A stretch of 64,000 nt of DNA from a virus (taxonomy: Duplodnaviria; Heunggongvirae; Uroviricota; Caudoviricetes): IMG/VR virus record IMGVR_UViG_2718217789_000006; one strand, given 5' to 3'. The position numbers and the translations under genes are program-made. The notes below the pieces were generated by a model. The model did no database searches and had not been told where the DNA came from. It saw only the letters and a list, made by a program, of their open reading frames with translations. Shown here in pieces: positions 13,685 through 62,124 of this stretch; the first letter of the stretch is position 1, and every line of letters starts with the position of its first letter.

Positions 13685-13693
13685 GGGATGTTT

Positions 13694-14026
13694 ATGACGA
13701 GCAAAGAAACCTTTACCCATTACCAGCCGCTGGGCAACAGTGACCCGGCTCATACCGCAACCGCGCCCGGCGGATTGAGTGCGAAAGCGCCTGCAATGAC
13801 CCCGCTGATGCTGGACACCTCCAGCCGTAAGCTGGTTGCGTGGGATGGTACCACCGACGGTGCTGCCGTTGGCATTCTTGCGGTTGCTGCTGACCAGACC
13901 AGCACCACGCTGACGTTCTACAAGTCCGGCACGTTCCGTTATGAGGATGTGCTCTGGCCGGAGGCTGCCAGCGACGAGACGAAAAAACGGACCGCGTTTG
14001 CCGGAACGGCAATCAGCATCGTTTAA
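13694..14026 (+). CDS. D: Head decoration protein D
   Basis: [15 protein letters not shown]… matches lambda gpD. Confidence 0.95.
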
Positions 14027-14081
14027 CCTGACCCTTCATCACTAAAGGCCGCCTGTGCGGCTTTTTTTACGGGATTTTTTT

Positions 14082-15107
14082 ATGTCGATGTACACAACCG
14101 CCCAACTGCTGGCGGCAAATGAGCAGAAATTTAAGTTTGATCCGCTGTTTCTGCGTCTCTTTTTCCGTGAGAGCTATCCCTTCACCACGGAGAAAGTCTA
14201 TCTCTCACAAATTCCGGGACTGGTAAACATGGCGCTGTACGTTTCGCCGATTGTTTCCGGTGAGGTTATCCGTTCCCGTGGCGGCTCCACCTCTGAATTT
14301 ACGCCGGGATATGTCAAGCCGAAGCATGAAGTGAATCCGCAGATGACCCTGCGTCGCCTGCCGGATGAAGATCCGCAGAATCTGGCGGACCCGGCTTACC
14401 GCCGCCGTCGCATCATCATGCAGAACATGCGTGACGAAGAGCTGGCCATTGCTCAGGTCGAAGAGATGCAGGCAGTTTCTGCCGTGCTCAAGGGCAAATA
14501 CACCATGACCGGTGAAGCCTTCGATCCGGTTGAGGTGGATATGGGCCGCAGTGCGGCGAACAACATCACGCAGTCCGGCGGCACGGAGTGGAGCAAGCGT
14601 GACAAGTCCACGTATGACCCGACCGACGATATCGAAGCCTACGCGCTGAACGCCAGCGGCGTGGTGAATATCATCGTGTTTGACCCGAAAGGCTGGGCGC
14701 TGTTCCGTTCCTTCAAAGCCGTCAGGGAGAAGCTGGATACCCGTCGCGGCTCTCATTCCGAACTGGAGACAGCGGTAAAAGACCTGGGCAAAGCGGTGTC
14801 TTATAAGGGAATGTATGGCGATGTGGCCATCGTCGTGTATTCCGGACAGTACGTGGAAAACGGCGTCAAAAAGAACTTCCTGCCGGACAACACGATGGTG
14901 CTGGGGAACACTCAGGCACGCGGTCTGCGCACCTATGGCTGCATTCAGGATGCGGACGCACAGCGCGAAGGCATTAACGCCTCTGCCCGTTACCCGAAAA
15001 ACTGGGTGACCACCGGCGATCCGGCGCGTGAGTTCACCATGATTCAGTCAGCACCGCTGATGCTGCTGGCTGACCCTGATGAGTTCGTGTCCGTACAACT
15101 GGCGTAA
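14082..15107 (+). CDS. E: Major capsid protein E
   Basis: MSMYTTAQLLAANEQ… matches lambda gpE. Confidence 0.95.
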   Translation: MSMYTTAQLLAANEQKFKFDPLFLRLFFRESYPFTTEKVYLSQIPGLVNMALYVSPIVSGEVIRSRGGSTSEFTPGYVKPKHEVNPQMTLRRLPDEDPQNLADPAYRRRRIIMQNMRDEELAIAQVEEMQAVSAVLKGKYTMTGEAFDPVEVDMGRSAANNITQSGGTEWSKRDKSTYDPTDDIEAYALNASGVVNIIVFDPKGWALFRSFKAVREKLDTRRGSHSELETAVKDLGKAVSYKGMYGDVAIVVYSGQYVENGVKKNFLPDNTMVLGNTQARGLRTYGCIQDADAQREGINASARYPKNWVTTGDPAREFTMIQSAPLMLLADPDEFVSVQLA

Positions 15108-42629: not shown

Positions 42630-43316
42630 ATGACCCCAATAAAAATATTTATGACTATTGCTGATTTCAAACGGCCTAAATTGGAGCTCCCAAACGGGGC
42701 AAACAAACTACTACTGCACTCTTGCTGTGCTCCATGTTCCGGTGAAGTGATGGAGGCGCTTCAGGCCTCGGGAATCGACTACACCATCTTTTTCTACAAC
42801 CCGAACATTCATCCTCAGAAAGAGTATTTAATTCGTAAGGATGAAAATATTCGCTTTGCTGAACAACACGGCGTGCCGTTTATCGATGCTGATTACGACA
42901 CCGACAACTGGTTTGAACGTGCCAAAGGAATGGAATGGGAGCCTGAGAGGGGGATCCGTTGTACCATGTGTTTTGACATGCGTTTTGAGCGGACAGCGTT
43001 GTACGCTGCTGAAAATGGTTTCAGTGTGATCAGCAGTTCACTGGGCATTTCACGCTGGAAAAATATGCAGCAGGTTAACGAGTGTGGGCGGCGAGCTGTT
43101 GCGCATTATCCGGGTATGGTGTACTGGGATTATAACTGGCGCAAGCAGGGCGGCTCGTCCCGTATGATTGAAATCAGCAAGCGCGAAAAATTCTATCAGC
43201 AGGAATATTGTGGCTGTGTGTATTCTCTGCGCGATACCAATCTACACCGCAAATCTCAGGGACGCCCTCTTATCAAAATTGGCCAACTCCACTACGGAAA
43301 AGAAGAGAAGGAGTGA
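42630..43316 (+). CDS. QueH-like (DUF208) epoxyqueuosine-reductase family protein
   Basis: …[14 protein letters not shown]… and downstream Cys motifs ([16 protein letters not shown]) match the remembered DUF208/QueH signature. Confidence 0.6.
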
Positions 43317-43494: not shown

Positions 43495-44619
43495 ATGCGG
43501 ATGAAAGAATTAAATAAATTCAGAGTGATAGACCTCTTTTGTGGGGCAGGTGGATTATCTTATGGTTTTCTTCATGGAGAGATGTCTGACTACTTTGAAA
43601 GTATCCTTGCTATTGATAATAATGCTGCAGCTATAAATACCTACAATGCCAATTTTGGTTTGCATGGAGTTCAGGCAAATATTGAGGAGTGGGCATCCAG
43701 CAATACTGTTCCTGAGGCTGATGTGGTCATAGGTGGCCCCCCGTGTCAGGGATTCAGTTTATTGAATAAGAATCGTTATGGTGATCACCGAAGAGCATTG
43801 TGGGAGCCTTATATGGATGTCATTGAGCGTTCAAGGGCTTGTATGTTCGTCATGGAAAATGTCCCCGGATTGCTGATAAGCGATGAGTTTGCGGACATTA
43901 CGTTTAGAGCGAAATCCATGGGCTTTATTCTGCTTAATCCAATGGTGTTGAATACTGCTGACTATGGAGTACCTCAGACAAGAAAACGAACGATAGCAAT
44001 CGGTATCAAACGAGAACTCTTCGATGTGCATAGTATTCCGGCGTTCCCGCCAGCACCAACGCATCGTTCCCCTGATAAGGATGTCGCTTTGCCTGAATGG
44101 GTCTGTACGCGTGATGCAATTGGTGACTTACCTGCTCCTGTTGGAACTGATATTCGTAATGAACTTCCTCCGCTGAACTTACATTTTGGGCGTAATCCCA
44201 CACCTGTTTCTCTGGAGCGATATAAAGCGGTTCCACCAGGAGGTAACCGTTTCGATTTACAGAAAAAAAGACCTGATATAACCCCGGCGTGCTGGCTAAA
44301 AAAGAAATCTGGAGGGACCGATTTGTTTGGACGTCTGTGGTGGGACAGACCTTCAGTAACGATTCGTACTGAGTTTTTCAAACCGGAGAAAGGGCGATAT
44401 TTACATCCGGAAGAGGATCGGCCAATAACTCATCGTGAGGCAGCGAGATTAATGTCTTTTCCTGATAATTTCATTTTTACCGGTTCAAAAACTGAGATTG
44501 CAAAGCAGATCGGGAATGCTGTTCCACCGCTATTTGCGGCAAAAATCGCACAATATGTGTATGGAGTTTTGCAGGGACGGTATAAGAATAACATCAGTAA
44601 GAATAGTCAAGCAGCCTGA
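43495..44619 (+). CDS. DNA cytosine-5 methyltransferase
   Basis: Motif I DLFCGAGG, motif IV GGPPCQGFS, motif VI ENVPG; GAGG RBS 7 nt upstream. Confidence 0.85.
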   Translation: MRMKELNKFRVIDLFCGAGGLSYGFLHGEMSDYFESILAIDNNAAAINTYNANFGLHGVQANIEEWASSNTVPEADVVIGGPPCQGFSLLNKNRYGDHRRALWEPYMDVIERSRACMFVMENVPGLLISDEFADITFRAKSMGFILLNPMVLNTADYGVPQTRKRTIAIGIKRELFDVHSIPAFPPAPTHRSPDKDVALPEWVCTRDAIGDLPAPVGTDIRNELPPLNLHFGRNPTPVSLERYKAVPPGGNRFDLQKKRPDITPACWLKKKSGGTDLFGRLWWDRPSVTIRTEFFKPEKGRYLHPEEDRPITHREAARLMSFPDNFIFTGSKTEIAKQIGNAVPPLFAAKIAQYVYGVLQGRYKNNISKNSQAA

Positions 44620-44632
44620 AGGAAATCCAGAA

Positions 44633-45511
44633 ATGAATGGAGATTTGGTTGACAGCATAGTTGGTTTTGCTGAAGCCAGAAAGGAGTTTCATGCCCAATT
44701 GTTACTGAATACGCTCACAATTAATACTGCCGGAGTTGTTAGTAACGCAGATAGCAGTAACAAAAACAGTAAAGCTATAGCAAGAGAAATTGCTCGCTTC
44801 TTGCAGGCTGAAACGATTGGTGAACGTGTTGCAGGGCAAACATCTGGTAATCAGTTTGAGAGTATCTGCGCAGAGTTTATAGAAAAAACCTTTTTTAAAC
44901 TCAGCCACTTACGCCCTGGAAAATGGAATGTACATCAGGTTTCTGGTAGAAACAGATTAGAGATAGCTAAATATGAACAATATGCCCATCTTATAGCATT
45001 GGATAGTGCTGCAAAAAGTAATCCTCAGCTAGCTGCTGCACTGGGGAGTGATTATACGATTTCACCAGATATTATTGTTGAAAGAGAACCTGAATGTGAT
45101 CAAGTTATCAACAGTCCTGAATTACTGGTGGATGATTCTGTTACCCGCATGTCAGCTCTCAGGAGTTCGAATGGTGGGAAACCAATATTACACGCAAGTA
45201 TTTCCTGCAAATGGACAATAAGAAGCGACCGGGCCCAGAATGCTCGTTCTGAGGCATTAAATCTTATTCGCAACCGTAAGGGAAATCTCCCTCATGTAAT
45301 GGTTGTTACTGCTGAGCCTACTCCAAGTCGTCTGGCGTCTATTGCTCTTGGTACTGGTGATATAGATTGCGTGTATCATTTTGCGCTTTATGAACTTATA
45401 TCAGCAGTTGAAATACTGGGGCTCAGCGATGCAGCTGACATGCTTTCCGTGATGGTTAATGGTAAAAGATTAAAGGATATTTCTGATCTTCCCTTGGATC
45501 TTGCAGTCTGA
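44633..45511 (+). CDS. Putative type II restriction endonuclease paired with the methyltransferase
   Basis: 292-aa ORF starting 13 nt after the methyltransferase stop with AAGGA RBS; PD…K-like segment (…SPDIIVERE…ISCKWT…); assignment by context. Confidence 0.45.
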   Translation: MNGDLVDSIVGFAEARKEFHAQLLLNTLTINTAGVVSNADSSNKNSKAIAREIARFLQAETIGERVAGQTSGNQFESICAEFIEKTFFKLSHLRPGKWNVHQVSGRNRLEIAKYEQYAHLIALDSAAKSNPQLAAALGSDYTISPDIIVEREPECDQVINSPELLVDDSVTRMSALRSSNGGKPILHASISCKWTIRSDRAQNARSEALNLIRNRKGNLPHVMVVTAEPTPSRLASIALGTGDIDCVYHFALYELISAVEILGLSDAADMLSVMVNGKRLKDISDLPLDLAV

Positions 45512-54025: not shown

Positions 54026-54493
54026 ATGAACCGCGTACTGTGCGTGGTCATCATTGCCCTGCTGGTGGCCTGTGGTGCGCTTAGTCTGGGGCTGAATCAT
54101 TACCGTGATAACGCCATAACCTACAAAGAGCAGCGCGATAAAAAAGTCAGTGAGCTGGAGCAGGCAAATGCAACCATTACTGATATGCAGCAGCGCCAGC
54201 GTGATGTTGCTGCACTCGATGCAAAATACTCGAGGGAATTAGCCGATGCGAGAGCTGAAAATGAAACTCTGCGTGCTGATGTTGCCGCTGGTCGTAAGCG
54301 CCTGCGGATCAACGCCACCTGCCCCGGTACCGTGCGTGAAGCCACCGGCACCTCCGGCGTGGATAATGCAACCGGCCCCCGACTGGCAGACACCGCTGAA
54401 CGGGATTATTTCATCCTCAGAGAACGGTTGATGATGATGCAGAAGCAGCTGGAAGGGGCGCAGGAATATATCCGCACTCAGTGTATTAACTAG
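54026..54493 (+). CDS. Rz: Rz i-spanin
   Basis: Paralog of the prophage-1 Rz. Confidence 0.8.
   Translation: MNRVLCVVIIALLVACGALSLGLNHYRDNAITYKEQRDKKVSELEQANATITDMQQRQRDVAALDAKYSRELADARAENETLRADVAAGRKRLRINATCPGTVREATGTSGVDNATGPRLADTAERDYFILRERLMMMQKQLEGAQEYIRTQCIN
54261..54431 (+). CDS. Rz1: Rz1 o-spanin lipoprotein
   Basis: Embedded +1 frame, lipobox LVVSAC. Confidence 0.75.
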   Translation: MKLCVLMLPLVVSACGSTPPAPVPCVKPPAPPAWIMQPAPDWQTPLNGIISSSENG

Positions 54494-55159: not shown

Positions 55160-55636
55160 ATGGATCGTGAATTAAAAAATCTGCATCTGAATATTTCCCA
55201 ACTGGCCGCATTATCCGGTGCTCATCGACAGACTGTTGCGGCTCGGGTAAAAAACATAAGCCCAGCCGGTGGTCATGAGAGCAATCTCAAACTGTACCGA
55301 CTGACAGATATCCTTGCCGAGCTGATGAAAGCTCCTCTGCCTGTAGATAACGAGGAAATGGATCCTCATGCGCGTAAAGCATGGTACCAGTCAGAACGTG
55401 ACCGACTGAAATTTGAGCAGGAAACTGGTCAGCTTGTGCCAGTCAGTGATGTCAGGCGGTCCTTTTCTGTCGTGGTGAAAGCGATAGTTCAGGTACTGGA
55501 AACCTGGCCTGACCGGCTGGAGAGGGACAGGGGGTGGACCGCATCACAACTGAATGAAGTACAGATTGTGGTTGATGAGATCCGCGACACACTGGAAAAG
55601 GCAGTCATTGACTGTTGTGATGAGGCCGATATGTGA
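55160..55636 (+). CDS. Terminase small subunit (non-lambda type)
   Basis: 158-aa ORF with N-terminal HTH-like segment, immediately upstream of and overlapping the large subunit. Confidence 0.6.
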   Translation: MDRELKNLHLNISQLAALSGAHRQTVAARVKNISPAGGHESNLKLYRLTDILAELMKAPLPVDNEEMDPHARKAWYQSERDRLKFEQETGQLVPVSDVRRSFSVVVKAIVQVLETWPDRLERDRGWTASQLNEVQIVVDEIRDTLEKAVIDCCDEADM

Positions 55637-57756
55637 ATCAGGTGAACGAGAGCCATAGCCGCGCATCCGATATCTGGCGCGAAGTGGCCTCGCTGTTTCG
55701 CCCACCTGGCCGGTTACCAGTAGCGGAAGCCATCAGGCGTTATATGCGGGTTCCACGGGGAGCCAATACTTCCGGTCCGTGGGAGTCATCGCTGACGCCC
55801 TATATGATTGACCCCATTAATACATTATCAGCCCGTGAATATGACGCGGTGGTGTTTGTGGGACCTGCGCGAACCGGGAAAACCGAAGGGCTGATTGATG
55901 GCTGGATTGTGTACGGCATCATCTGTGATCCGGCGGATATGCTGGTGGTGCAGATGACTGAGACGAAGGCGCGTGAGCATTCCAGAACGCGTCTTTCCAG
56001 GACGTTTCGCCACAGTCCGGAGGTCAGCAAGCGCCTCAGTCCTTCCCGTAATGACAACAACGTCCACGATAAAATGTTTCTTGACGGCTCCTTCCTGAAG
56101 ATTGGCTGGCCGTCGATCACCGTCTTTTCCTCTTCGGATTACCGTCGTGTGGCGCTGACGGATTATGACCGTTTCCCTGAAAACGTGGACGGGGAAGGGG
56201 ATGCCTTCACGCTGGCCTCAAAGCGTACCACCACCTTTATGTCCTCGGGGATGACCCTGGTCGAGAGTTCACCGGGGCGGGATATCACCGATACCAAATG
56301 GCGTTGTGGTGGCGCACATGAGGCACCGCCAACAACGGGGATCCTGTCACTGTATAACCGGGGAGACCGCCGCCGGTGGTACTGGCCGTGTCCGCACTGC
56401 GGGGAATATTTTCAGCCGGTGATGGATAACATGACCGGATACCGGAATAACCCGGATTTTGTGGCTGCCGGTCAGGCTGCCCGTCTGATGTGTCCGCATT
56501 GTCGCGGGCTGATTGCCCCTGAGCAGAAACGCGAACTGAATAACCAGGGGATCTGGCTTCGTGAAGGTGAACGGGCGGCGGCGGACGGCAGTATCACCGG
56601 AACGCCACGAAACTCCCGGATTGCGTCATTTTGGATGGAGGGGCCAGCTGCGGCGTTTCAGACCTGGGAACAACTGATTTTTAAACTGCTGGCGGCAGAA
56701 GAAGAGTATGAGCGAACCGGCAGTGAAGAGACTCTGAAAGCGGTGGTGAACACCGATATCGGACGACCCTATCTGCCCCGTTCAGCCACGGAACAGCGTA
56801 AAAGTGAACTGCTTGAACAGCGTGCCGAGCCGTTTCCCCGGCGATCTGTGCCGGATGGTGTGCGTTTTATTGAGGCAACGGTTGACGTACAGGGCGGTAA
56901 AAATCGCCGTTTTGTTGTGCAGATCACCGGATACGGAGAGCAGGGGGAACGCTGGATTGTTGATCGCTACAACATCCGGCATTCACTGCGCTGCAGTCCC
57001 AACGGTGAAAGTCTGCCGGTTGATCCGGCGGCATATCCGGAGGACTGGGATTTGTTGCTGACGGATGTGTTCCATAAAACATGGCCGCTGGCTTCTGATC
57101 CGGATGTGCGCATGCGTCTGATGGCCATGGCGGTGGATACGGGAGGGGAAGCCGGGGTGACAGATAACGCCTATCGTTTCTGGCGTCGTTGCCGGAGTGA
57201 CGGACTGGGCAACAGGGTGTTTCTGTTCAAGGGGGATGGACTTCGCCGTGACAGGCTGATTAACCGAACCTTCCCGGATAATACCGGCAGAAGTGCCCGC
57301 CGTGCCAGAGCCAGTGGCGATGTCGCGCTGTGGCTGGTTCAGACGGATGCGTTTAAGGATCGTGTAAATAATGCCCTGTGGCGTGACACACCAGGGCCGA
57401 ACTATATCCACTTTCCCGACTGGCTGGGGCGGTGGTTTTACGATGAGCTGACCTATGAAGAGCGCGGCAGTGACGGAAAATGGCGAAAACCGGGCAGGGG
57501 CGCTAACGAAGCGTTTGACCTGCTGGTTTATGCGGATGCGCTTGCCGTTCTGCATGGTTACGAAAAGATCCGCTGGCCCTCCGCACCGGACTGGGCACAG
57601 CGGGAAACGTGGCTCGTCTTCCCGCAGGAGCGTTCTGGTGAAACGGTATCCCCGGAACTGACGGCCGGGGCAGAAAAACGCCGTCGCCGGAAGAAAAAAC
57701 TGTGGACGGAGCGTGCGGAAGATAATCCATGGATAACATCAGGAGGCTGGTTGTGA
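55633..57756 (+). CDS. Terminase large subunit (GTG start)
   Basis: 707 aa; Walker A VGPARTGKT. Confidence 0.8.
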   Translation: MNQVNESHSRASDIWREVASLFRPPGRLPVAEAIRRYMRVPRGANTSGPWESSLTPYMIDPINTLSAREYDAVVFVGPARTGKTEGLIDGWIVYGIICDPADMLVVQMTETKAREHSRTRLSRTFRHSPEVSKRLSPSRNDNNVHDKMFLDGSFLKIGWPSITVFSSSDYRRVALTDYDRFPENVDGEGDAFTLASKRTTTFMSSGMTLVESSPGRDITDTKWRCGGAHEAPPTTGILSLYNRGDRRRWYWPCPHCGEYFQPVMDNMTGYRNNPDFVAAGQAARLMCPHCRGLIAPEQKRELNNQGIWLREGERAAADGSITGTPRNSRIASFWMEGPAAAFQTWEQLIFKLLAAEEEYERTGSEETLKAVVNTDIGRPYLPRSATEQRKSELLEQRAEPFPRRSVPDGVRFIEATVDVQGGKNRRFVVQITGYGEQGERWIVDRYNIRHSLRCSPNGESLPVDPAAYPEDWDLLLTDVFHKTWPLASDPDVRMRLMAMAVDTGGEAGVTDNAYRFWRRCRSDGLGNRVFLFKGDGLRRDRLINRTFPDNTGRSARRARASGDVALWLVQTDAFKDRVNNALWRDTPGPNYIHFPDWLGRWFYDELTYEERGSDGKWRKPGRGANEAFDLLVYADALAVLHGYEKIRWPSAPDWAQRETWLVFPQERSGETVSPELTAGAEKRRRRKKKLWTERAEDNPWITSGGWL

Positions 57757-57965
57757 GCACAGAAGAAGCCAGAGAAATGATACAGCGGTACCGTGAAGCG
57801 GAAATGGCCGTACTGGAGGGAAAGTCTGTCACCTTCAACGGGCAGCAACTGACGCTGGAAAGCCTTTCTCAGATCCGCGCCGGACGTCAGGAGTGGGAAC
57901 GCAGGCTTGCCGCGATGGTGAGCCGCAGGCGGGGAAAACCGGGATTTAAACTGGCGAGGTTTTAA
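57753..57965 (+). CDS. gpW-like head-tail joining protein (GTG start)
   Basis: 70 aa from GTG with AGGAGG RBS; similar size and position to lambda W. Confidence 0.5.
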   Translation: MSTEEAREMIQRYREAEMAVLEGKSVTFNGQQLTLESLSQIRAGRQEWERRLAAMVSRRRGKPGFKLARF

Positions 57966-59467
57966 TGGCAATTATTGATGATGTGATCGGCGTGTTTTCC
58001 CCCGGGTGGAAAGCAGCCAGACTGCGTTCAAGGGCGTTAATCATGGCCTATGAGGCGGTGAAACCGACCCGGACACATAAAGCCCGGCGGGAAAATCGCT
58101 CTGCTGATCAGCTCAGTAAATACGGTGCGGTTTCCCTGCGGGAGCAGGCCCGTTTTCTGGATATCAATCATGACCTGGTGATTGGTGTGTTTGACAAGCT
58201 GGAAGAGCGGGTGATTGGTGCCAGGGGAATTATTGTGGAGCCTCAGCCATTACGAAAAAACGGGGAAATGGCGGCTGAGCTGGCTGCGGATATCCGCCGT
58301 TTGTGGGCTGAATGGTCCGTGAGTCCGGATGTGACAGGGCAGTATACCCGTCCTGTGCTTGAACGTTTACTGCTGCGGACCTGGCTGCGGGATGGTGAAG
58401 TGTTTGCGCAGATGGTCAGTGGTGCGGGAAACGGTCTGGAACGGACGGCGGGAGTGCCATTCTGGCTTGAGGCGATGGAGCCGGATTTTGTTCCCATGCG
58501 CACTGATGAATCCGCCGGACTGAATCAGGGGGTTTTTCTTGATGAGTGGGGAAGACCGAAAAAATATCTGGTTTATAAAAATTATCCGGTCAGCGGCCGG
58601 CAGAGTGATACGAAAGAAATCGCTGCCGGAAAAATGATCCACCTGAAGTTCACTCGTCGTCTGCATCAGACGCGAGGCTCATCCATGTTATCGGGGGTGC
58701 TGATGCGGATCAGTGCCCTTAAGGAGTATGAGGATGCGGAACTGACAGCGGCGCGTATTGCTGCGGCGCTGGGACTGTATATCCGTAAAGGTGACGGACA
58801 GGACTATGAAGATCCGGGGAGCAAAGAGACCGAGCGGGAAGTCCATATCACCCCGGGTATTATTTATGACGATTTGCGCAAGGGCGAGGATATCGGCATG
58901 GTCAAATCTGACCGTCCCAATCCCAACCTTGAAACTTTCCGCAACGGCCAGTTGCGTGCAGTGGCAGCAGGCAGTCGTCTGAGTTTTTCCAGTGCGGCGC
59001 GTAACTATAACGGCACCTACAGCGCCCAGCGGCAGGAGCTGGTCGAGTCCACGGATGGTTACCTGATCCTGCAGGACTGTTTTATTGGCGCGGTAACCCG
59101 CCCGGTGTACCGGACATGGCTGAATATGGTGGTTGCGGCAGGTCTGCTGAAAATTCCGGCGGATGTGGAGATGAAAACGCTATATAACGCGACGTATTCC
59201 GGTCCGGTGATGCCGTGGATCGACCCGGTTAAGGAAGCTGAAGCCTGGAGAATTCAGATCCGGGGTGGTGCAGCGACAGAATCTGACTGGGTGCGTGCTG
59301 GTGGGCGCAATCCGGATGAGGTCAAACGTCGCCGCAAGGCTGAAATTGATGAAAACAGCAGACTGGGGCTGGTCTTTGATACTGACCCCGTCAACGACAA
59401 AGGAGGCAACAGTGCCGGAACTGAACGACAGTATCAGCGCGACACCGAAAGCCAGCATGAAGAATAA
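57965..59467 (+). CDS. Portal protein
   Basis: 500-aa ORF between terminase and protease/capsid. Confidence 0.75.
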   Translation: MAIIDDVIGVFSPGWKAARLRSRALIMAYEAVKPTRTHKARRENRSADQLSKYGAVSLREQARFLDINHDLVIGVFDKLEERVIGARGIIVEPQPLRKNGEMAAELAADIRRLWAEWSVSPDVTGQYTRPVLERLLLRTWLRDGEVFAQMVSGAGNGLERTAGVPFWLEAMEPDFVPMRTDESAGLNQGVFLDEWGRPKKYLVYKNYPVSGRQSDTKEIAAGKMIHLKFTRRLHQTRGSSMLSGVLMRISALKEYEDAELTAARIAAALGLYIRKGDGQDYEDPGSKETEREVHITPGIIYDDLRKGEDIGMVKSDRPNPNLETFRNGQLRAVAAGSRLSFSSAARNYNGTYSAQRQELVESTDGYLILQDCFIGAVTRPVYRTWLNMVVAAGLLKIPADVEMKTLYNATYSGPVMPWIDPVKEAEAWRIQIRGGAATESDWVRAGGRNPDEVKRRRKAEIDENSRLGLVFDTDPVNDKGGNSAGTERQYQRDTESQHEE

Positions 59468-61436
59468 ATCCTGGTTCAGGATGCTGGCGGGTAGTCAGGG
59501 TGAGGCAGATATTTATATTTATGACGAGATTGGTTTCTGGGGAGTTACCGCGAAGCAGTTTGTCAGCGAACTGAATGCACTGGGTGATATCACCCACATT
59601 AATCTCCATATCAATTCACCGGGTGGCGATGTCTTTGAAGGCATCGCCATTTTTAATGCCCTGAAAAATCAGGGGGCGACCATTACCGTGTATGTGGATG
59701 GCGTTGCCGCCTCGATGGCATCTGTGATTGCGATGGCCGGTGATACGGTCATTATGCCGGAAAATGCCTTCATGATGATCCATAAGCCATGGGGATTCAG
59801 TGGCGGGGATGCTGAGGATATGCGCAGTTATGCCGATTTGCTGGATAAAGTCGAATCGGTACTGTTGCCAGCCTATGCGCAGAAAACCGGAAAAACCACC
59901 GATGAAATTGCCGCCATGCTGGCGGATGAAACCTGGATGTCCGGTGCCGAATGTCTGGCACACGGATTTGCTGACCAGGTGACACCCGCTGTTGAGGCAA
60001 TGGCATGTATTCAGTCAAAACGTACAGAGGAATTTAAAAAGATGCCGGAATCCATCCGAAACATGATTACTCCGCCACGCAACAGTGCCCCGCGTGATAC
60101 CACAGTGACAATCCCTGCACCGGAGGTAACAGAACCATCACCGGTACCGGCAGTGTCTGATGAGGCGACCATTCGCGCCCGCGTTATGGCAGAACAGAAA
60201 GCCCGCATGTCAGGCATTAACGATCTGTTTGCCATGTTCGGTGGTCGCTATCAGACGCTTCAGGCACAGTGCGTGGCTGATCCTGACTGTTCGCTGGAAA
60301 TGGCCCGTGAACGACTGCTGAATGAAATGGGCAAGGAGTCCTCGCCGACCAACAAAAATACACCGGCCCATATTTATGCCGGAAACGGCAATTTTGTGGG
60401 GGACGGGATCCGCCAGGCGATGCTGGCCCGTGCCGGATTTGAAAATGTCGAGAAGGATAACGCCTATAACGGGATGACCCTGCGTGAATGGGCTCGCATG
60501 TCACTGACGGAGCGCGGTATTGGGGTGGCCAGTTATAACCCCATGCAGATGGTCGGGCTGGCGCTGACGCACAGCACCTCTGATTTTGGCAATATTCTGC
60601 TGGATGTGTCGAACAAGGGGCTGATCCAGGGCTGGGAGGAATCAGAAGAAACCTTCCAGAAGTGGACCCGTAAGGGACGCCTGTCAGACTTCAAAACAGC
60701 GTATCGCGTGGGGATGGGCGGTTTTGGTTCTCTGCGCCAGGTTCGTGAGGGGGCGGAGTATAAATACATCACCACCTCAGATCGCAAGGAGACCATTGCA
60801 CTGGCCACTTACGGGGAGATTTTCTCCATCACCCGCCAGGCCATTATCAATGATGATCTGAATATGCTGGTGGACGTGCCGATGAAGATGGGGCGTGCGG
60901 CGAAGGCAACGATTGGTGACCTGGTCTACAAGGTGCTGACGGATAACCCGAAACTGTCCGACGGTAAGGCGCTGTTCCATGCCGATCACAAAAATATTGC
61001 CACCGGGGGGATCTCCGTTTCCGGACTGGATGCGGCCCGTCAGATGATGCGCCTGCAGAAAGAAGGCGATCGTGCCCTGAATATCCGTCCGGCCTTTATG
61101 CTGGTACCGGTGGCACTGGAGACGGTGGCGAACCAGACCATCAAATCGGCCAGTGTGAAAGGGGCGGATGCAAACGCCGGTGTCATTAACCCTATCCAGA
61201 ACTTTGCTGAGGTGATTGCAGAAGCGCGTCTTGATGCGGCAGACCCGAAAACCTGGTATCTGGCGGCGGCACAGGGCACTGACACCATTGAAGTGGCCTG
61301 GCTGGATGGTGTGGACACGCCATACATTGATCAGCAGGAAGGTTTCACCACTGACGGCATTGCCACAAAAATCCGTATTGATGCCGGAGTGGCACCACTT
61401 GACTGGCGCGGGCTGGTGCGTTCGTCGGTGGCCTGA
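59412..61436 (+). CDS. Fused ClpP-like prohead protease and major capsid protein
   Basis: N-terminal ClpP-like serine-protease region (…INSPGGDV…VDGVAASMASVIAMAG…), C-terminal capsid-like region; AGGAGG RBS before GTG 59412 (alternative ATG 59457). Confidence 0.65.
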   Translation: MPELNDSISATPKASMKNKSWFRMLAGSQGEADIYIYDEIGFWGVTAKQFVSELNALGDITHINLHINSPGGDVFEGIAIFNALKNQGATITVYVDGVAASMASVIAMAGDTVIMPENAFMMIHKPWGFSGGDAEDMRSYADLLDKVESVLLPAYAQKTGKTTDEIAAMLADETWMSGAECLAHGFADQVTPAVEAMACIQSKRTEEFKKMPESIRNMITPPRNSAPRDTTVTIPAPEVTEPSPVPAVSDEATIRARVMAEQKARMSGINDLFAMFGGRYQTLQAQCVADPDCSLEMARERLLNEMGKESSPTNKNTPAHIYAGNGNFVGDGIRQAMLARAGFENVEKDNAYNGMTLREWARMSLTERGIGVASYNPMQMVGLALTHSTSDFGNILLDVSNKGLIQGWEESEETFQKWTRKGRLSDFKTAYRVGMGGFGSLRQVREGAEYKYITTSDRKETIALATYGEIFSITRQAIINDDLNMLVDVPMKMGRAAKATIGDLVYKVLTDNPKLSDGKALFHADHKNIATGGISVSGLDAARQMMRLQKEGDRALNIRPAFMLVPVALETVANQTIKSASVKGADANAGVINPIQNFAEVIAEARLDAADPKTWYLAAAQGTDTIEVAWLDGVDTPYIDQQEGFTTDGIATKIRIDAGVAPLDWRGLVRSSVA

Positions 61437-61523
61437 TAACCGCGTTATCACAATCACTGCCCGAAAGGGCTTTTTTTATGCCTGAAAAACAGCCCCACAG
61501 GGGCTGTCCGGAGAAACAGCATT

Positions 61524-61850
61524 ATGGCGAAAAATTTTGTACAGGACGGTACCACCATTGAACTGGTGAATGCCGGAGATCAGACCATCCTGAGCGGTGC
61601 TGCGGTGGTGGTCGGCAGTATGGTGGCCGTGGCCATTACCGATATTCCTGCCGGTGAGGCCGGTGACGGTTTTGCCGAAGGCGTGTTCCTGCTGCCCAAA
61701 CAGTCTGCTGACGACATTCAGTCCGGCGCGGTGGTTTATCTGAAGGACGGGGTTGTGCAGCTGGCTGCAGACGGTGCGGTGGCAGCGGGGGTAGCCTGGG
61801 AAAATGCCCCTGCAAACAGCGCCACTGTGGCGGTAAAAATCAATGTCTGA
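61524..61850 (+). CDS. Putative head decoration or completion protein (Gly/Ala-rich, 108 aa)
   Basis: ORF directly downstream of the capsid gene. Confidence 0.45.
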   Translation: MAKNFVQDGTTIELVNAGDQTILSGAAVVVGSMVAVAITDIPAGEAGDGFAEGVFLLPKQSADDIQSGAVVYLKDGVVQLAADGAVAAGVAWENAPANSATVAVKINV

Positions 61851-62124
61851 TCTGTTTACGCGAATGTGTTGCCGGATGGACGTGGCGACCGTTCGGGTGA
61901 TGGGCAAACAGGCGGAGATTAACGGCGTCGTGTACGACGTGATGCCGGAGGAAGAGTCCGCGGAGATGGGGGCGCTTTCGGGCAGCCAGTTGTCACTGGT
62001 GGTGTTTTCAGCCCGGTACCGTCCGGCCCGTCATGATGTTGTTGTGTTTGCGGGGCGCACACTGACGGTGACCCGTTATGACACGTACAACGGTAAACCC
62101 CGGATTTTTGTCGAACAGGAATGA
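61843..62124 (+). CDS. Putative head-tail joining protein
   Basis: 93-aa ORF overlapping neighbours, immediately upstream of Z. Confidence 0.45.
   Translation: MSDLFTRMCCRMDVATVRVMGKQAEINGVVYDVMPEEESAEMGALSGSQLSLVVFSARYRPARHDVVVFAGRTLTVTRYDTYNGKPRIFVEQE

What the first reader, a model, noticed from the sequence alone, without database searches (positions are those of the whole stretch)
59412..61436. Single ORF fusing a ClpP-like prohead protease to the major capsid protein
A 675 to 723-aa ORF has an N-terminal ClpP-like protease region and a C-terminal capsid-like region, so the capsid protein must be released by autoproteolysis. The start is ambiguous between GTG 59412 (strong AGGAGG RBS) and ATG 59457.
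Basis: partly seen in the sequence, partly recalled or inferred. Interest (0 to 1): 0.4.

Follow-up and report, generated by a model that had tools for sequence, protein, structure and literature searches.

The report
Fused phage protease–scaffold–capsid gene (known type)
This is a real single gene in an E. coli O157 prophage that encodes the head-maturation protease, a scaffold-like segment and the major capsid protein as one polypeptide, but it is an ordinary member of a family already described in Salmonella phage Gifsy-2 and named in NCBI annotation.

Summary
An uninterrupted ORF (maximal 59265..61436) carries an N-terminal ClpP-like serine protease and a C-terminal HK97-fold major capsid protein. 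They are separated by a disordered linker and a helical, scaffold-like segment.

The window is 100% identical to the E. coli strain 9000 chromosome, where RefSeq names the gene [quoted passage not shown]. It scores 1004 bits against NCBIfam NF045540 (cut-off 475). It is 60% identical end to end to the Gifsy-2 "tripartite capsid gene" product (Effantin et al. 2010).

The fusion is intact in about 2,000 complete E. coli genomes, in isolated phages, and in prophages of alpha-, beta- and gammaproteobacteria. That rules out a sequencing artefact.

Comparative data favour GTG 59412 with its AGGAGG over the RefSeq start ATG 59457. Self-processing is inferred, not shown. Novelty: already known. Interest: low.

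The parts
59412..61436 (+). Fusion gene (674 codons plus TGA): ClpP-like prohead protease, scaffold-like segment and major capsid protein. This is the preferred start.
   Evidence: ORF. NF045540 at 1004 bits. 60% identity to the Gifsy-2 protein. Start-site comparison.
59401..59406 (+). Shine-Dalgarno AGGAGG, 5 nt upstream of GTG 59412.
   Evidence: Sequence. AAAGGAGGCA-N4-GTG is invariant in all 26 distinct enterobacterial start regions, while neighbouring synonymous positions of the overlapping portal frame vary. Mean predicted SD/anti-SD pairing is -11.5 kcal/mol.
59457..59459 (+). Alternative start ATG, the RefSeq-annotated start (659 aa). It lies 8 nt before the portal stop codon.
   Evidence: RefSeq CDS. 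This Met is replaced by Pro, Leu, Ala or Val in diverged relatives and has no SD.
59469..60077 (+). ClpP-like serine protease module (aa 20-222). Ser101 is at 59712-59714, His124 at 59781-59783 and Glu173 at 59928-59930.
60084..60155 (+). Hypervariable Pro/Thr/Ala-rich disordered linker (aa 225-248).
   Evidence: pLDDT below 50. It is the least conserved, indel-rich block in alignments A1 and A4.
60159..60341 (+). Three-helix scaffold-like module (aa 250-310). The scaffolding role is inferred.
   Evidence: AF2 helices 251-274, 281-289 and 295-308 with pLDDT 88-97. No Pfam domain covers it. It sits between protease and capsid as in Gifsy-2.
60342..60392 (+). Second, lower-confidence linker (aa 311-327). 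Gifsy-2 has an 8-residue insertion here.
   Evidence: pLDDT 59-70. Indel in the alignment.
60393..61433 (+). Major capsid protein module (aa 328-674). Pfam Phage_capsid_4 core is aa 381-671 (60552-61424). The mature N-terminus is undetermined.
60042..60044 (+). In-frame ATG (Met211) just after the protease module, with (G/C)AGGA 10-11 nt upstream. It is a candidate internal start only.
   Evidence: Conserved with its SD-like motif in the enterobacterial, Gifsy-2 and Pseudomonas variants. It is not conserved across the wider family, which has V/A/I/P/T at this position.
61459..61477 (+). Hairpin GCCC-GAAA-GGGC followed by T7, 23 nt after the stop. It resembles an intrinsic terminator.
   Evidence: Sequence. 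The mEp460 record annotates a rho-independent terminator at the same position. The 4-bp stem is below the scan threshold used.
57965..59467 (+). Portal gene (lambda family). Its last 56 nt overlap the fusion gene.
   Evidence: Pfam Phage_portal_2 and TIGR01539. 64% identity to the Gifsy-2 portal.
61524..61850 (+). Head decoration (cement) protein gene immediately downstream.
   Evidence: Pfam Phage_cement_2 and PHROG 122 'head decoration'. 54% identity to the Gifsy-2 neighbour.
55160..57756 (+). DUF1441 gene and gpA-type large terminase gene, upstream members of the same head module.
   Evidence: Pfam. RefSeq annotation.

Best explanation
The ORF is the single head-shell gene of a Gifsy-2-type lambdoid prophage of E. 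coli O157. Most likely from GTG 59412, it is translated into a 73-kDa polyprotein with three parts. These are a ClpP-fold serine protease (about aa 20-222), a flexible linker plus a helical scaffold-like segment (about aa 225-330, possibly extending further), and an HK97-fold major capsid protein at the C-terminus.

The inferred mechanism is as follows. The C-terminal parts co-assemble on the portal into a T=7 procapsid, with the protease and scaffold parts facing inward. This brings one protease per shell subunit into the cavity. The proteases then cut away and degrade the N-terminal two thirds. The fragments leave, the shell expands during DNA packaging, and the downstream decoration protein cements it.

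Shown here: the domain architecture, the intact active site, family membership, the gene context and the wide conservation of the fusion. Inferred from the Gifsy-2 precedent and general HK97/lambda knowledge: self-cleavage, the scaffolding role of the middle part, the T number and the order of events.
For: The ORF is uninterrupted. Pfam finds CLP_protease plus Phage_capsid_4. NCBIfam NF045540 scores 1004 bits against a cut-off of 475, end to end. PHROG 133 matches at full length.

RefSeq names the identical gene 'ClpP-like prohead protease/major capsid protein fusion protein'. It is 60% identical over all three parts to the Gifsy-2 gene, which Effantin et al. 2010 described as a tripartite capsid gene with fused protease and coat protein genes (cited in PMC12315714).

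The portal and decoration neighbours are 64% and 54% identical to those of Gifsy-2. The next gene downstream matches Pfam family 'Gifsy-2' PF13856. No other protease, scaffold or capsid gene lies between the portal and the tail genes.

The fusion is kept in viable phages such as mEp460, Ayreon, cdtI and Pseudomonas BR204a. It is also kept in 75 of 75 full-length relatives from other species.
Against: No experimental data exist for this copy. Processing, the mature N-terminus and particle formation are untested.

The full text of the Gifsy-2 paper could not be read, so its details rest on citing papers and on memory.

The ClpP catalytic Asp position holds Glu here, so catalytic competence is inferred from conservation only.

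The host prophage may be defective. RefSeq marks its tail assembly protein T gene as a pseudogene just beyond the window. A 1:1 protease-to-capsid ratio is unusual and might be modulated by alternative starts.
Confidence: 0.9

Rival explanations
1. Nested expression. Besides the full-length polyprotein, translation also starts internally at ATG 60042 (Met211), just after the protease module. This would give an HK97-gp5-like scaffold-capsid protein without protease. The protease-bearing form would then be a minority species, by analogy with lambda Nu3 nested in gene C.
For: Met211 and a (G/C)AGGA motif 10-11 nt upstream are kept in all enterobacterial, Gifsy-2 and Pseudomonas variants. The Glu206 codon is always GAG although other codons nearby vary synonymously. 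Met211 lies at the protease-linker boundary.
Against: Across 94 diverse fusions position 211 is V/A/I/P/T/L, whereas Pro212 is conserved. This points to a protein-level motif rather than a start site. The SD-like motif is weak (about -6 kcal/mol) and the spacing is long. The variants compared are phylogenetically correlated.
Confidence: 0.06
2. The ORF encodes only a protease/scaffold protein, as many phage records label it, and the true major capsid protein is encoded elsewhere.
For: Deposited annotations of homologues read 'protease/scaffold protein', 'head maturation protease' or 'Clp protease'.
Against: The C-terminal 290 residues match capsid families at E 1e-55 and fold as an HK97-type capsid protein. 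No other capsid gene exists in this prophage's head module. The lambda-type gpE gene at 14082-15107 belongs to the neighbouring prophage.
Confidence: 0.02
3. Two originally separate genes appear joined through a sequencing or assembly error, or through a recent pseudogenising mutation.
For: Public databases do hold sporadic mis-joined ORFs in this region, including about ten 1159-aa portal+fusion singletons.
Against: A match is present in 2070 of 5426 complete E. coli genomes, and 403 records are at least 99% identical. The same single frame is kept at 36-78% identity in phages and prophages of many genera. A curated HMM exists for the full-length fusion.
Confidence: 0.01

Closest known systems
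[quoted passage not shown] 2010, Virology 402:355)
   Same: The order is the same: ClpP-like protease, central segment, then capsid protein, all in one ORF. Identity is 60% over the full length. The head-module synteny is the same, with homologous portal, decoration protein and PF13856 gene. The start position is equivalent (ATG in Gifsy-2, GTG here).
   Different: The linker is shorter and different. Gifsy-2 has 10-residue and 8-residue insertions. At the residue preceding the conserved Glu173, the window protein has Asp and Gifsy-2 has Lys. No particle or processing data exist for the E. coli copy.
NCBIfam NF045540, 'ClpP-like prohead protease/major capsid protein fusion protein'
   Same: The protein scores 1004 bits against a cut-off of 475 and covers model positions 2-651 of 652. 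RefSeq uses this name for the identical gene.
   Different: Nothing substantive differs. The RefSeq protein starts 15 codons later than the start favoured here.
HK97 gp4 protease plus gp5 (delta domain fused to the capsid protein)
   Same: The scaffold function is carried on the capsid polypeptide and removed by a prohead protease. The shell protein has the HK97 fold. The HK97 pathway itself is stated from established knowledge.
   Different: In HK97 the protease is a separate gene of a different fold family (herpesvirus-assemblin-like, not ClpP), and there is no decoration protein. Here the protease is fused as well.
Lambda gpC (S49 protease) with nested Nu3 scaffold, plus separate gpD and gpE
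   Same: It is a lambdoid head module with a lambda-family portal, a gpA terminase and a decoration protein. The protease and scaffold share one reading frame.
   Different: Lambda uses an SppA-like S49 protease and a separate capsid gene. That arrangement is present in the neighbouring prophage of this same window (12365-15107). The fusion protein does not reach S49/SppA thresholds.
NCBIfam NF045541, 'prohead protease/major capsid protein fusion protein' (second fusion family)
   Same: It shares the scaffold-plus-capsid portion, matching aa 217-671 at 418 bits.
   Different: The score is below the cut-off of 525, and the N-terminal protease part does not align. The window protein is not a member.
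Cellular ClpP (MEROPS S14)
   Different: The protein scores far below the ClpP equivalog cut-offs (62 against 309 bits). Glu replaces the catalytic Asp. No partner ATPase is implied, and the domain is tethered to a capsid protein.

Membership tests
NF045540 ClpP-like prohead protease/MCP fusion protein | Whole-protein HMM score above the curated cut-off, with end-to-end model coverage | tested here: met
   1004.3 bits against a cut-off of 475. Residues 32-672 match model positions 2-651 of 652.
Gifsy-2-type tripartite capsid gene | N-terminal ClpP-fold protease with an intact nucleophile and general base | tested here: met
   Pfam CLP_protease at E 9e-37. Ser101 and His124 are invariant in 94/94 sequences. 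Fold match to ClpP.
Gifsy-2-type tripartite capsid gene | Central non-catalytic segment between protease and capsid parts, with a putative scaffold role | tested here: inconclusive
   The segment is present: a disordered linker at 225-248 and a three-helix module at 250-310, homologous to the Gifsy-2 segment. A scaffolding function cannot be tested in silico.
Gifsy-2-type tripartite capsid gene | C-terminal HK97-fold major capsid protein in the same reading frame | tested here: met
Gifsy-2-type tripartite capsid gene | Full-length sequence homology and conserved head-module synteny with Gifsy-2 | tested here: met
   60% identity over 696 aligned columns. Portal 64% and decoration protein 54% identical. 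Same gene order.
Gifsy-2-type tripartite capsid gene | Proteolytic release of a mature capsid protein that forms the virion shell | not testable with these tools
   This needs virion proteomics or N-terminal sequencing.
ClpP / MEROPS S14 peptidases | Ser-His-Asp catalytic triad | tested here: inconclusive
   Ser and His are met. The residue aligned to the ClpP catalytic Asp is Glu173. That position is E in 77 and D in 13 of 94 relatives.
ClpP / MEROPS S14 peptidases | Equivalog-level similarity to cellular ClpP, implying a tetradecameric barrel working with Clp ATPases | tested here: not met
   TIGR00493 scores 61.6 bits against a cut-off of 308.6, and the other ClpP models are likewise below cut-off. 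Oligomeric state was not tested.
Lambda gpC-type S49 prohead protease | Peptidase_S49 / SppA domain above threshold | tested here: not met
   Only weak SppA hits were found (27 bits against 155). There is no Peptidase_S49 hit in Pfam. The neighbouring prophage's gpC does match S49.
NF045541 second protease/MCP fusion family | Score above the curated cut-off | tested here: not met
   418 bits against a cut-off of 525, matching only residues 217-671.

The most novel reading that the evidence does not exclude
The 1:1 protease-to-capsid stoichiometry implied by the fusion could be tuned by alternative initiation. Starts at GTG 59412 and ATG 59457 would give full-length polyprotein. A conserved internal start at ATG 60042 (Met211, preceded by a conserved GAGGA) would give a protease-less scaffold-capsid protein. 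That would be a lambda C/Nu3-like nested-gene strategy hidden inside the Gifsy-2-type tripartite gene of the enterobacterial and pseudomonad clade.
Probability: 0.06. Interest if true: 0.3.

Novelty: already known. Interest (0 to 1): 0.1.

Why it matters
There is little new biology here. The arrangement was described for Gifsy-2 in 2010, has a curated NCBIfam model, and is annotated as such in RefSeq for this exact sequence.

It remains a neat natural example of an all-in-one head gene. It is very common: a homologue is present in about 38% of complete E. coli genomes and in prophages across the Proteobacteria.

It is still mislabelled as 'Clp protease ClpP', 'protease/scaffold' or 'head maturation protease' in many records. 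That can hide the capsid gene from automated phage annotation and from capsid-based analyses. One study failed to recover an HK97-fold MCP for Gifsy-2 (PMC8814770).

The one practical correction offered here is the probable start codon: GTG 59412 rather than the annotated ATG 59457.

Tried and rejected
1. A first AlphaFold run used 30 close homologues (at least 75% identity). It gave an unusable model with mean pLDDT 36. A second run with 94 diverse representatives succeeded.

3. I looked for natural unfused relatives. P0211 sits on a 1.5-kb contig and is probably a fragment. P0163 is a frameshifted copy in a scrambled prophage remnant. P0269 lies next to early genes after a deletion. None can be claimed as a genuine split arrangement.

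4. The 1159-aa portal-protease-capsid ORFs in the protein database looked like a four-part polyprotein. Their junctions lie at different positions. They are therefore sporadic single-base indels in the ~256-nt stretch (59211-59467) where both frames are open.

5. The internal start at Met211 is conserved in the close clade but not family-wide. It is kept only as a low-probability rival.

6. I first assumed that Asp172 was the third triad residue. The HMMER alignment instead places Glu173 at the ClpP Asp position, and Asp172 is not conserved (Lys in Gifsy-2).

7. The full text of Effantin et al. 2010 is not held. Ten literature searches found no further experimental paper on this fusion in E. 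coli phages.
Full report
**Origin of the window.** The 64-kb window is identical, with 0 mismatches, to the reverse complement of E. coli strain 9000 chromosome NZ_CP018252.2, positions 2800492-2864491. Identical copies of the query occur in many bovine and human O157:H7 isolates. The window holds two tandem lambdoid prophages. The finding lies in the head module of the second one.

**Check of the observation.** One reading frame on the + strand is open from 59211, with its first possible start at GTG 59265. It runs without a stop to the TGA at 61434-61436.
- From GTG 59412 the product is 674 aa (73.2 kDa).
- From ATG 59457 it is 659 aa.
- The maximal ORF is 723 aa.
- AGGAGG sits at 59401-59406, five bases before GTG 59412.

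In 674-aa numbering, Pfam finds CLP_protease at aa 31-191 (E 9e-37) and Phage_capsid_4 at aa 381-671 (E 1e-55), with a weaker Mu-like_gpT hit.

**Family assignment.** NCBIfam NF045540, 'ClpP-like prohead protease/major capsid protein fusion protein', matches end to end. Residues 32-672 cover model positions 2-651 of 652, at 1004 bits against a curated cut-off of 475. The domain model NF045542, 'head maturation protease, ClpP-related', covers aa 32-190. PHROG 133 also matches over the full length.

RefSeq annotates the identical sequence under exactly the NF045540 name, as WP_265346341.1 starting at ATG 59457. The protein is 60% identical, and 76% similar, over all three parts to the product of Gifsy-2 gene STM1034.3n. 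[quoted passage not shown] I could not read the 2010 paper itself. From memory only, its abstract describes three parts. These are a ClpP-like protease at the N-terminus, a central domain of about 200 residues of possible scaffolding function, and the capsid protein at the C-terminus. It also reports T=7 capsids fitted with the HK97 capsid protein and lambda gpD.

**Gene context.** The neighbours form a Gifsy-2-type head module:

| Window coordinates | Gene | Evidence |
|---|---|---|
| 55160-55636 | DUF1441 protein | |
| 55633-57756 | gpA-type large terminase | |
| 57753-57965 | small ORF | |
| 57965-59467 | lambda-family portal, 64% identical to Gifsy-2's | |
| 59412-61436 | the fusion gene | |
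| 61524-61850 | decoration/cement protein, 54% identical to Gifsy-2's | |
| 61843-62124 | gene matching Pfam family 'Gifsy-2' PF13856 | |

No separate protease, scaffold or capsid gene lies between the portal and the tail genes. The fusion is therefore the only candidate shell protein of this prophage. The lambda-type gpE gene at 14082-15107 belongs to the neighbouring prophage.

**Anatomy of the protein.** A first AlphaFold run with 30 close homologues failed, with mean pLDDT 36. With 94 diverse full-length representatives (35-53% identity, alignment A4) the model reached mean pLDDT 89.1. It shows:
- a disordered N-terminal tail (aa 1-16);
- a compact alpha/beta module (about aa 20-222);
- a disordered linker (aa 225-248), which is also the least conserved and most indel-rich stretch;
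- a confident three-helix module (aa 250-310);
- a lower-confidence stretch (aa 311-327), where Gifsy-2 has an 8-residue insertion;
- a large C-terminal module (aa 328-674).

These alignments cover 217-241 residues. A sequence profile of the C-terminal part also hits the solved 'Mu GpT domain' capsid 8rkc at E 2.7e-7.

**Active site.** In the HMMER alignment to ClpP, the motifs GxAASMA and MIHxPxG align. Across the 94 diverse fusions Ser101 and His124 are invariant. The position aligned with the ClpP catalytic Asp is Glu173 here. It is acidic in 90 of 94 sequences (E 77, D 13). The neighbouring Asp172 is not conserved. The protease part is thus under selection as an enzyme, with a Ser-His-Glu/Asp arrangement. 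Activity itself is inferred.

**Is the fusion real and maintained?**
- DNA matches occur in 2070 of 5426 complete E. coli genomes. In 2011 of these the match covers at least 80% of the query, and 403 records are at least 99% identical.
- 28 phage records match at the DNA level.
- 82 phage records cover at least 80% of the protein. They include the isolated phages mEp460, Ayreon, cdtI and Pseudomonas phage BR204a at 58% identity.
- In the representative library, 8251 clusters at 50% identity match at E <= 1e-30. Most of the best 150 are 640-700-aa proteins aligned end to end. The two-stretch hits that I checked also carry both domains.
These span gamma-, beta- and alphaproteobacteria.
- In all 75 full-length matches the frame is uninterrupted.

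Exceptions are sporadic damage. The VT1-Sakai copy is split by IS629. One Vibrio-like remnant is frameshifted.

**Start codon.** RefSeq uses ATG 59457. The comparison favours GTG 59412.
- The string AAAGGAGGCA-N4-GTG is invariant in all 26 distinct enterobacterial start regions. Flanking synonymous positions of the overlapping portal frame vary over the same set.
- Gifsy-2 has an ATG at the homologous codon.
- The Met at 59457 is replaced by Pro, Leu, Ala or Val in diverged relatives and has no SD.
- The next Met (59481), which mEp460 uses as its annotated start, is absent in Gifsy-2.

ATG 59457 lies 8 nt before the portal stop, so reinitiation there cannot be excluded in this particular phage. 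The 15 residues at stake are predicted to be disordered and are missing from most relatives. The choice therefore has little functional weight. My estimate is about 0.75-0.8 for GTG 59412.

**Mechanism.** The steps shown are the architecture, the conserved active site, the absence of other shell genes, and homology to a phage whose capsids have been imaged. The steps inferred are these:
1. The C-terminal modules assemble on the portal into a procapsid, with the N-terminal two thirds inside.
2. This delivers one protease per subunit.
3. The protease domains cut at exposed sites. The two flexible stretches (225-248 and 311-327) are the obvious candidates.
4. The protease and scaffold parts are degraded, and the fragments leave.
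5. The shell expands on packaging and is stabilised by the downstream decoration protein.

**Rivals.**
- An internal start at ATG 60042 (Met211) would give an HK97-gp5-like scaffold-capsid protein. Met211 and an upstream (G/C)AGGA are conserved in the close clade. The position is not Met in the wider family, and Pro212 is conserved, which suggests a peptide motif instead. I give this about 0.06.
- The reading 'protease/scaffold only', found in many phage annotations, is contradicted by the capsid domain and the gene context.
- An assembly artefact is excluded by the comparative data.

**Comparison and verdict.** The gene works like a combination of HK97 and lambda. In HK97 the scaffold is fused to the capsid protein. 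In lambda the protease and scaffold share one frame and the head carries a decoration protein. That is exactly how the Gifsy-2 gene was characterised. The window gene is a member of that family by every testable criterion.

It is not a cellular ClpP, since it falls below all ClpP equivalog cut-offs. It is not a lambda gpC-type S49 protease, and it is not a member of the second fusion family NF045541.

Novelty: already known. Interest is low. The added value is confirmation, a domain map in window coordinates, the Glu-for-Asp detail, and a probable correction of the annotated start.

Noticed in passing
window 10783-15107 (+): The neighbouring prophage in the same window has the classic lambda head arrangement as separate genes. 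These are the portal (10783-12384), S49 gpC protease (12365-13684), gpD decoration protein (13694-14026) and gpE capsid protein (14082-15107). The window therefore offers a side-by-side contrast with the fused gene.
   Followed up: partly
protein database entries P0073, P0075, P0082 and about 7 others (relatives of window 57965-61436): Singleton 1159-aa ORFs join the portal to the protease-capsid fusion. The junctions fall at different positions, so they look like sporadic 1-nt indels in the ~256-nt stretch (window 59211-59467) where both frames are open. They do not look like a conserved four-part polyprotein.
   Followed up: partly
window 61459-61477 (+): A short hairpin GCCC-GAAA-GGGC followed by T7 lies 23 nt after the fusion gene stop, and a second hairpin lies at about 61490-61506. 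The mEp460 record annotates a rho-independent terminator at the same spot. It may be a partial terminator that sets the capsid-to-decoration-protein expression ratio.
   Followed up: no
window 43501-45511 (+): The second prophage carries a cargo restriction-modification pair: a DNA cytosine methyltransferase (43501-44619) and an NgoMIV-family restriction endonuclease (44633-45511). It also carries QueH at 42651-43316 and a further DNA methyltransferase. All are RefSeq annotations.
   Followed up: no
window 54026-54493 and 54246-54431 (+): A 61-aa ORF in another frame inside the Rz-like lysis gene begins MRELKMKLCVLMLPLVVSAC..., which contains a lipobox-like motif. It is presumably the embedded Rz1 o-spanin. 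RefSeq annotates only the outer gene.
   Followed up: no
phage record AP000400.1 (VT1-Sakai), homologue of window 59265-61436: The VT1-Sakai copy of the fusion gene, 99.3% identical, is interrupted by IS629, and its halves are annotated as 'scaffolding protein' and hypothetical proteins.
   Followed up: no
window 61843-62124 (+): RefSeq calls this 93-aa product a 'DNA breaking-rejoining protein', and Pfam's description of the matching family PF13856 'Gifsy-2' is 'ATP-binding sugar transporter from pro-phage'. Its position, between the decoration gene and tail gene Z, suggests a head-completion or connector protein. Both names look misleading.
   Followed up: no
window 442-517 and 618-694 (+): Two prophage-borne tRNA genes are present. 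ARAGORN calls the first tRNA-Met (anticodon CAT), whereas RefSeq calls it tRNA-Ile, consistent with a lysidine-modified tRNA-Ile2. The second is tRNA-Arg (TCT).
   Followed up: partly
window 1773-3623 (+), and just beyond the window end: There are signs of prophage decay. A DUF6645 gene in the first prophage has an internal stop. RefSeq marks the tail assembly protein T gene of the second prophage as truncated, just past position 64000. This copy may therefore not make particles on its own.
   Followed up: no
L088:2411-4386 (GCA_000755365.1 contig BBMQ01000056.1): This relative has the protease (201 aa) and scaffold-capsid (443 aa) parts called as separate genes. They are joined by a frameshift just before the conserved F-x-x-M-P motif, and the second call starts at the Met211-equivalent ATG. 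The context looks like a degraded prophage.
   Followed up: partly
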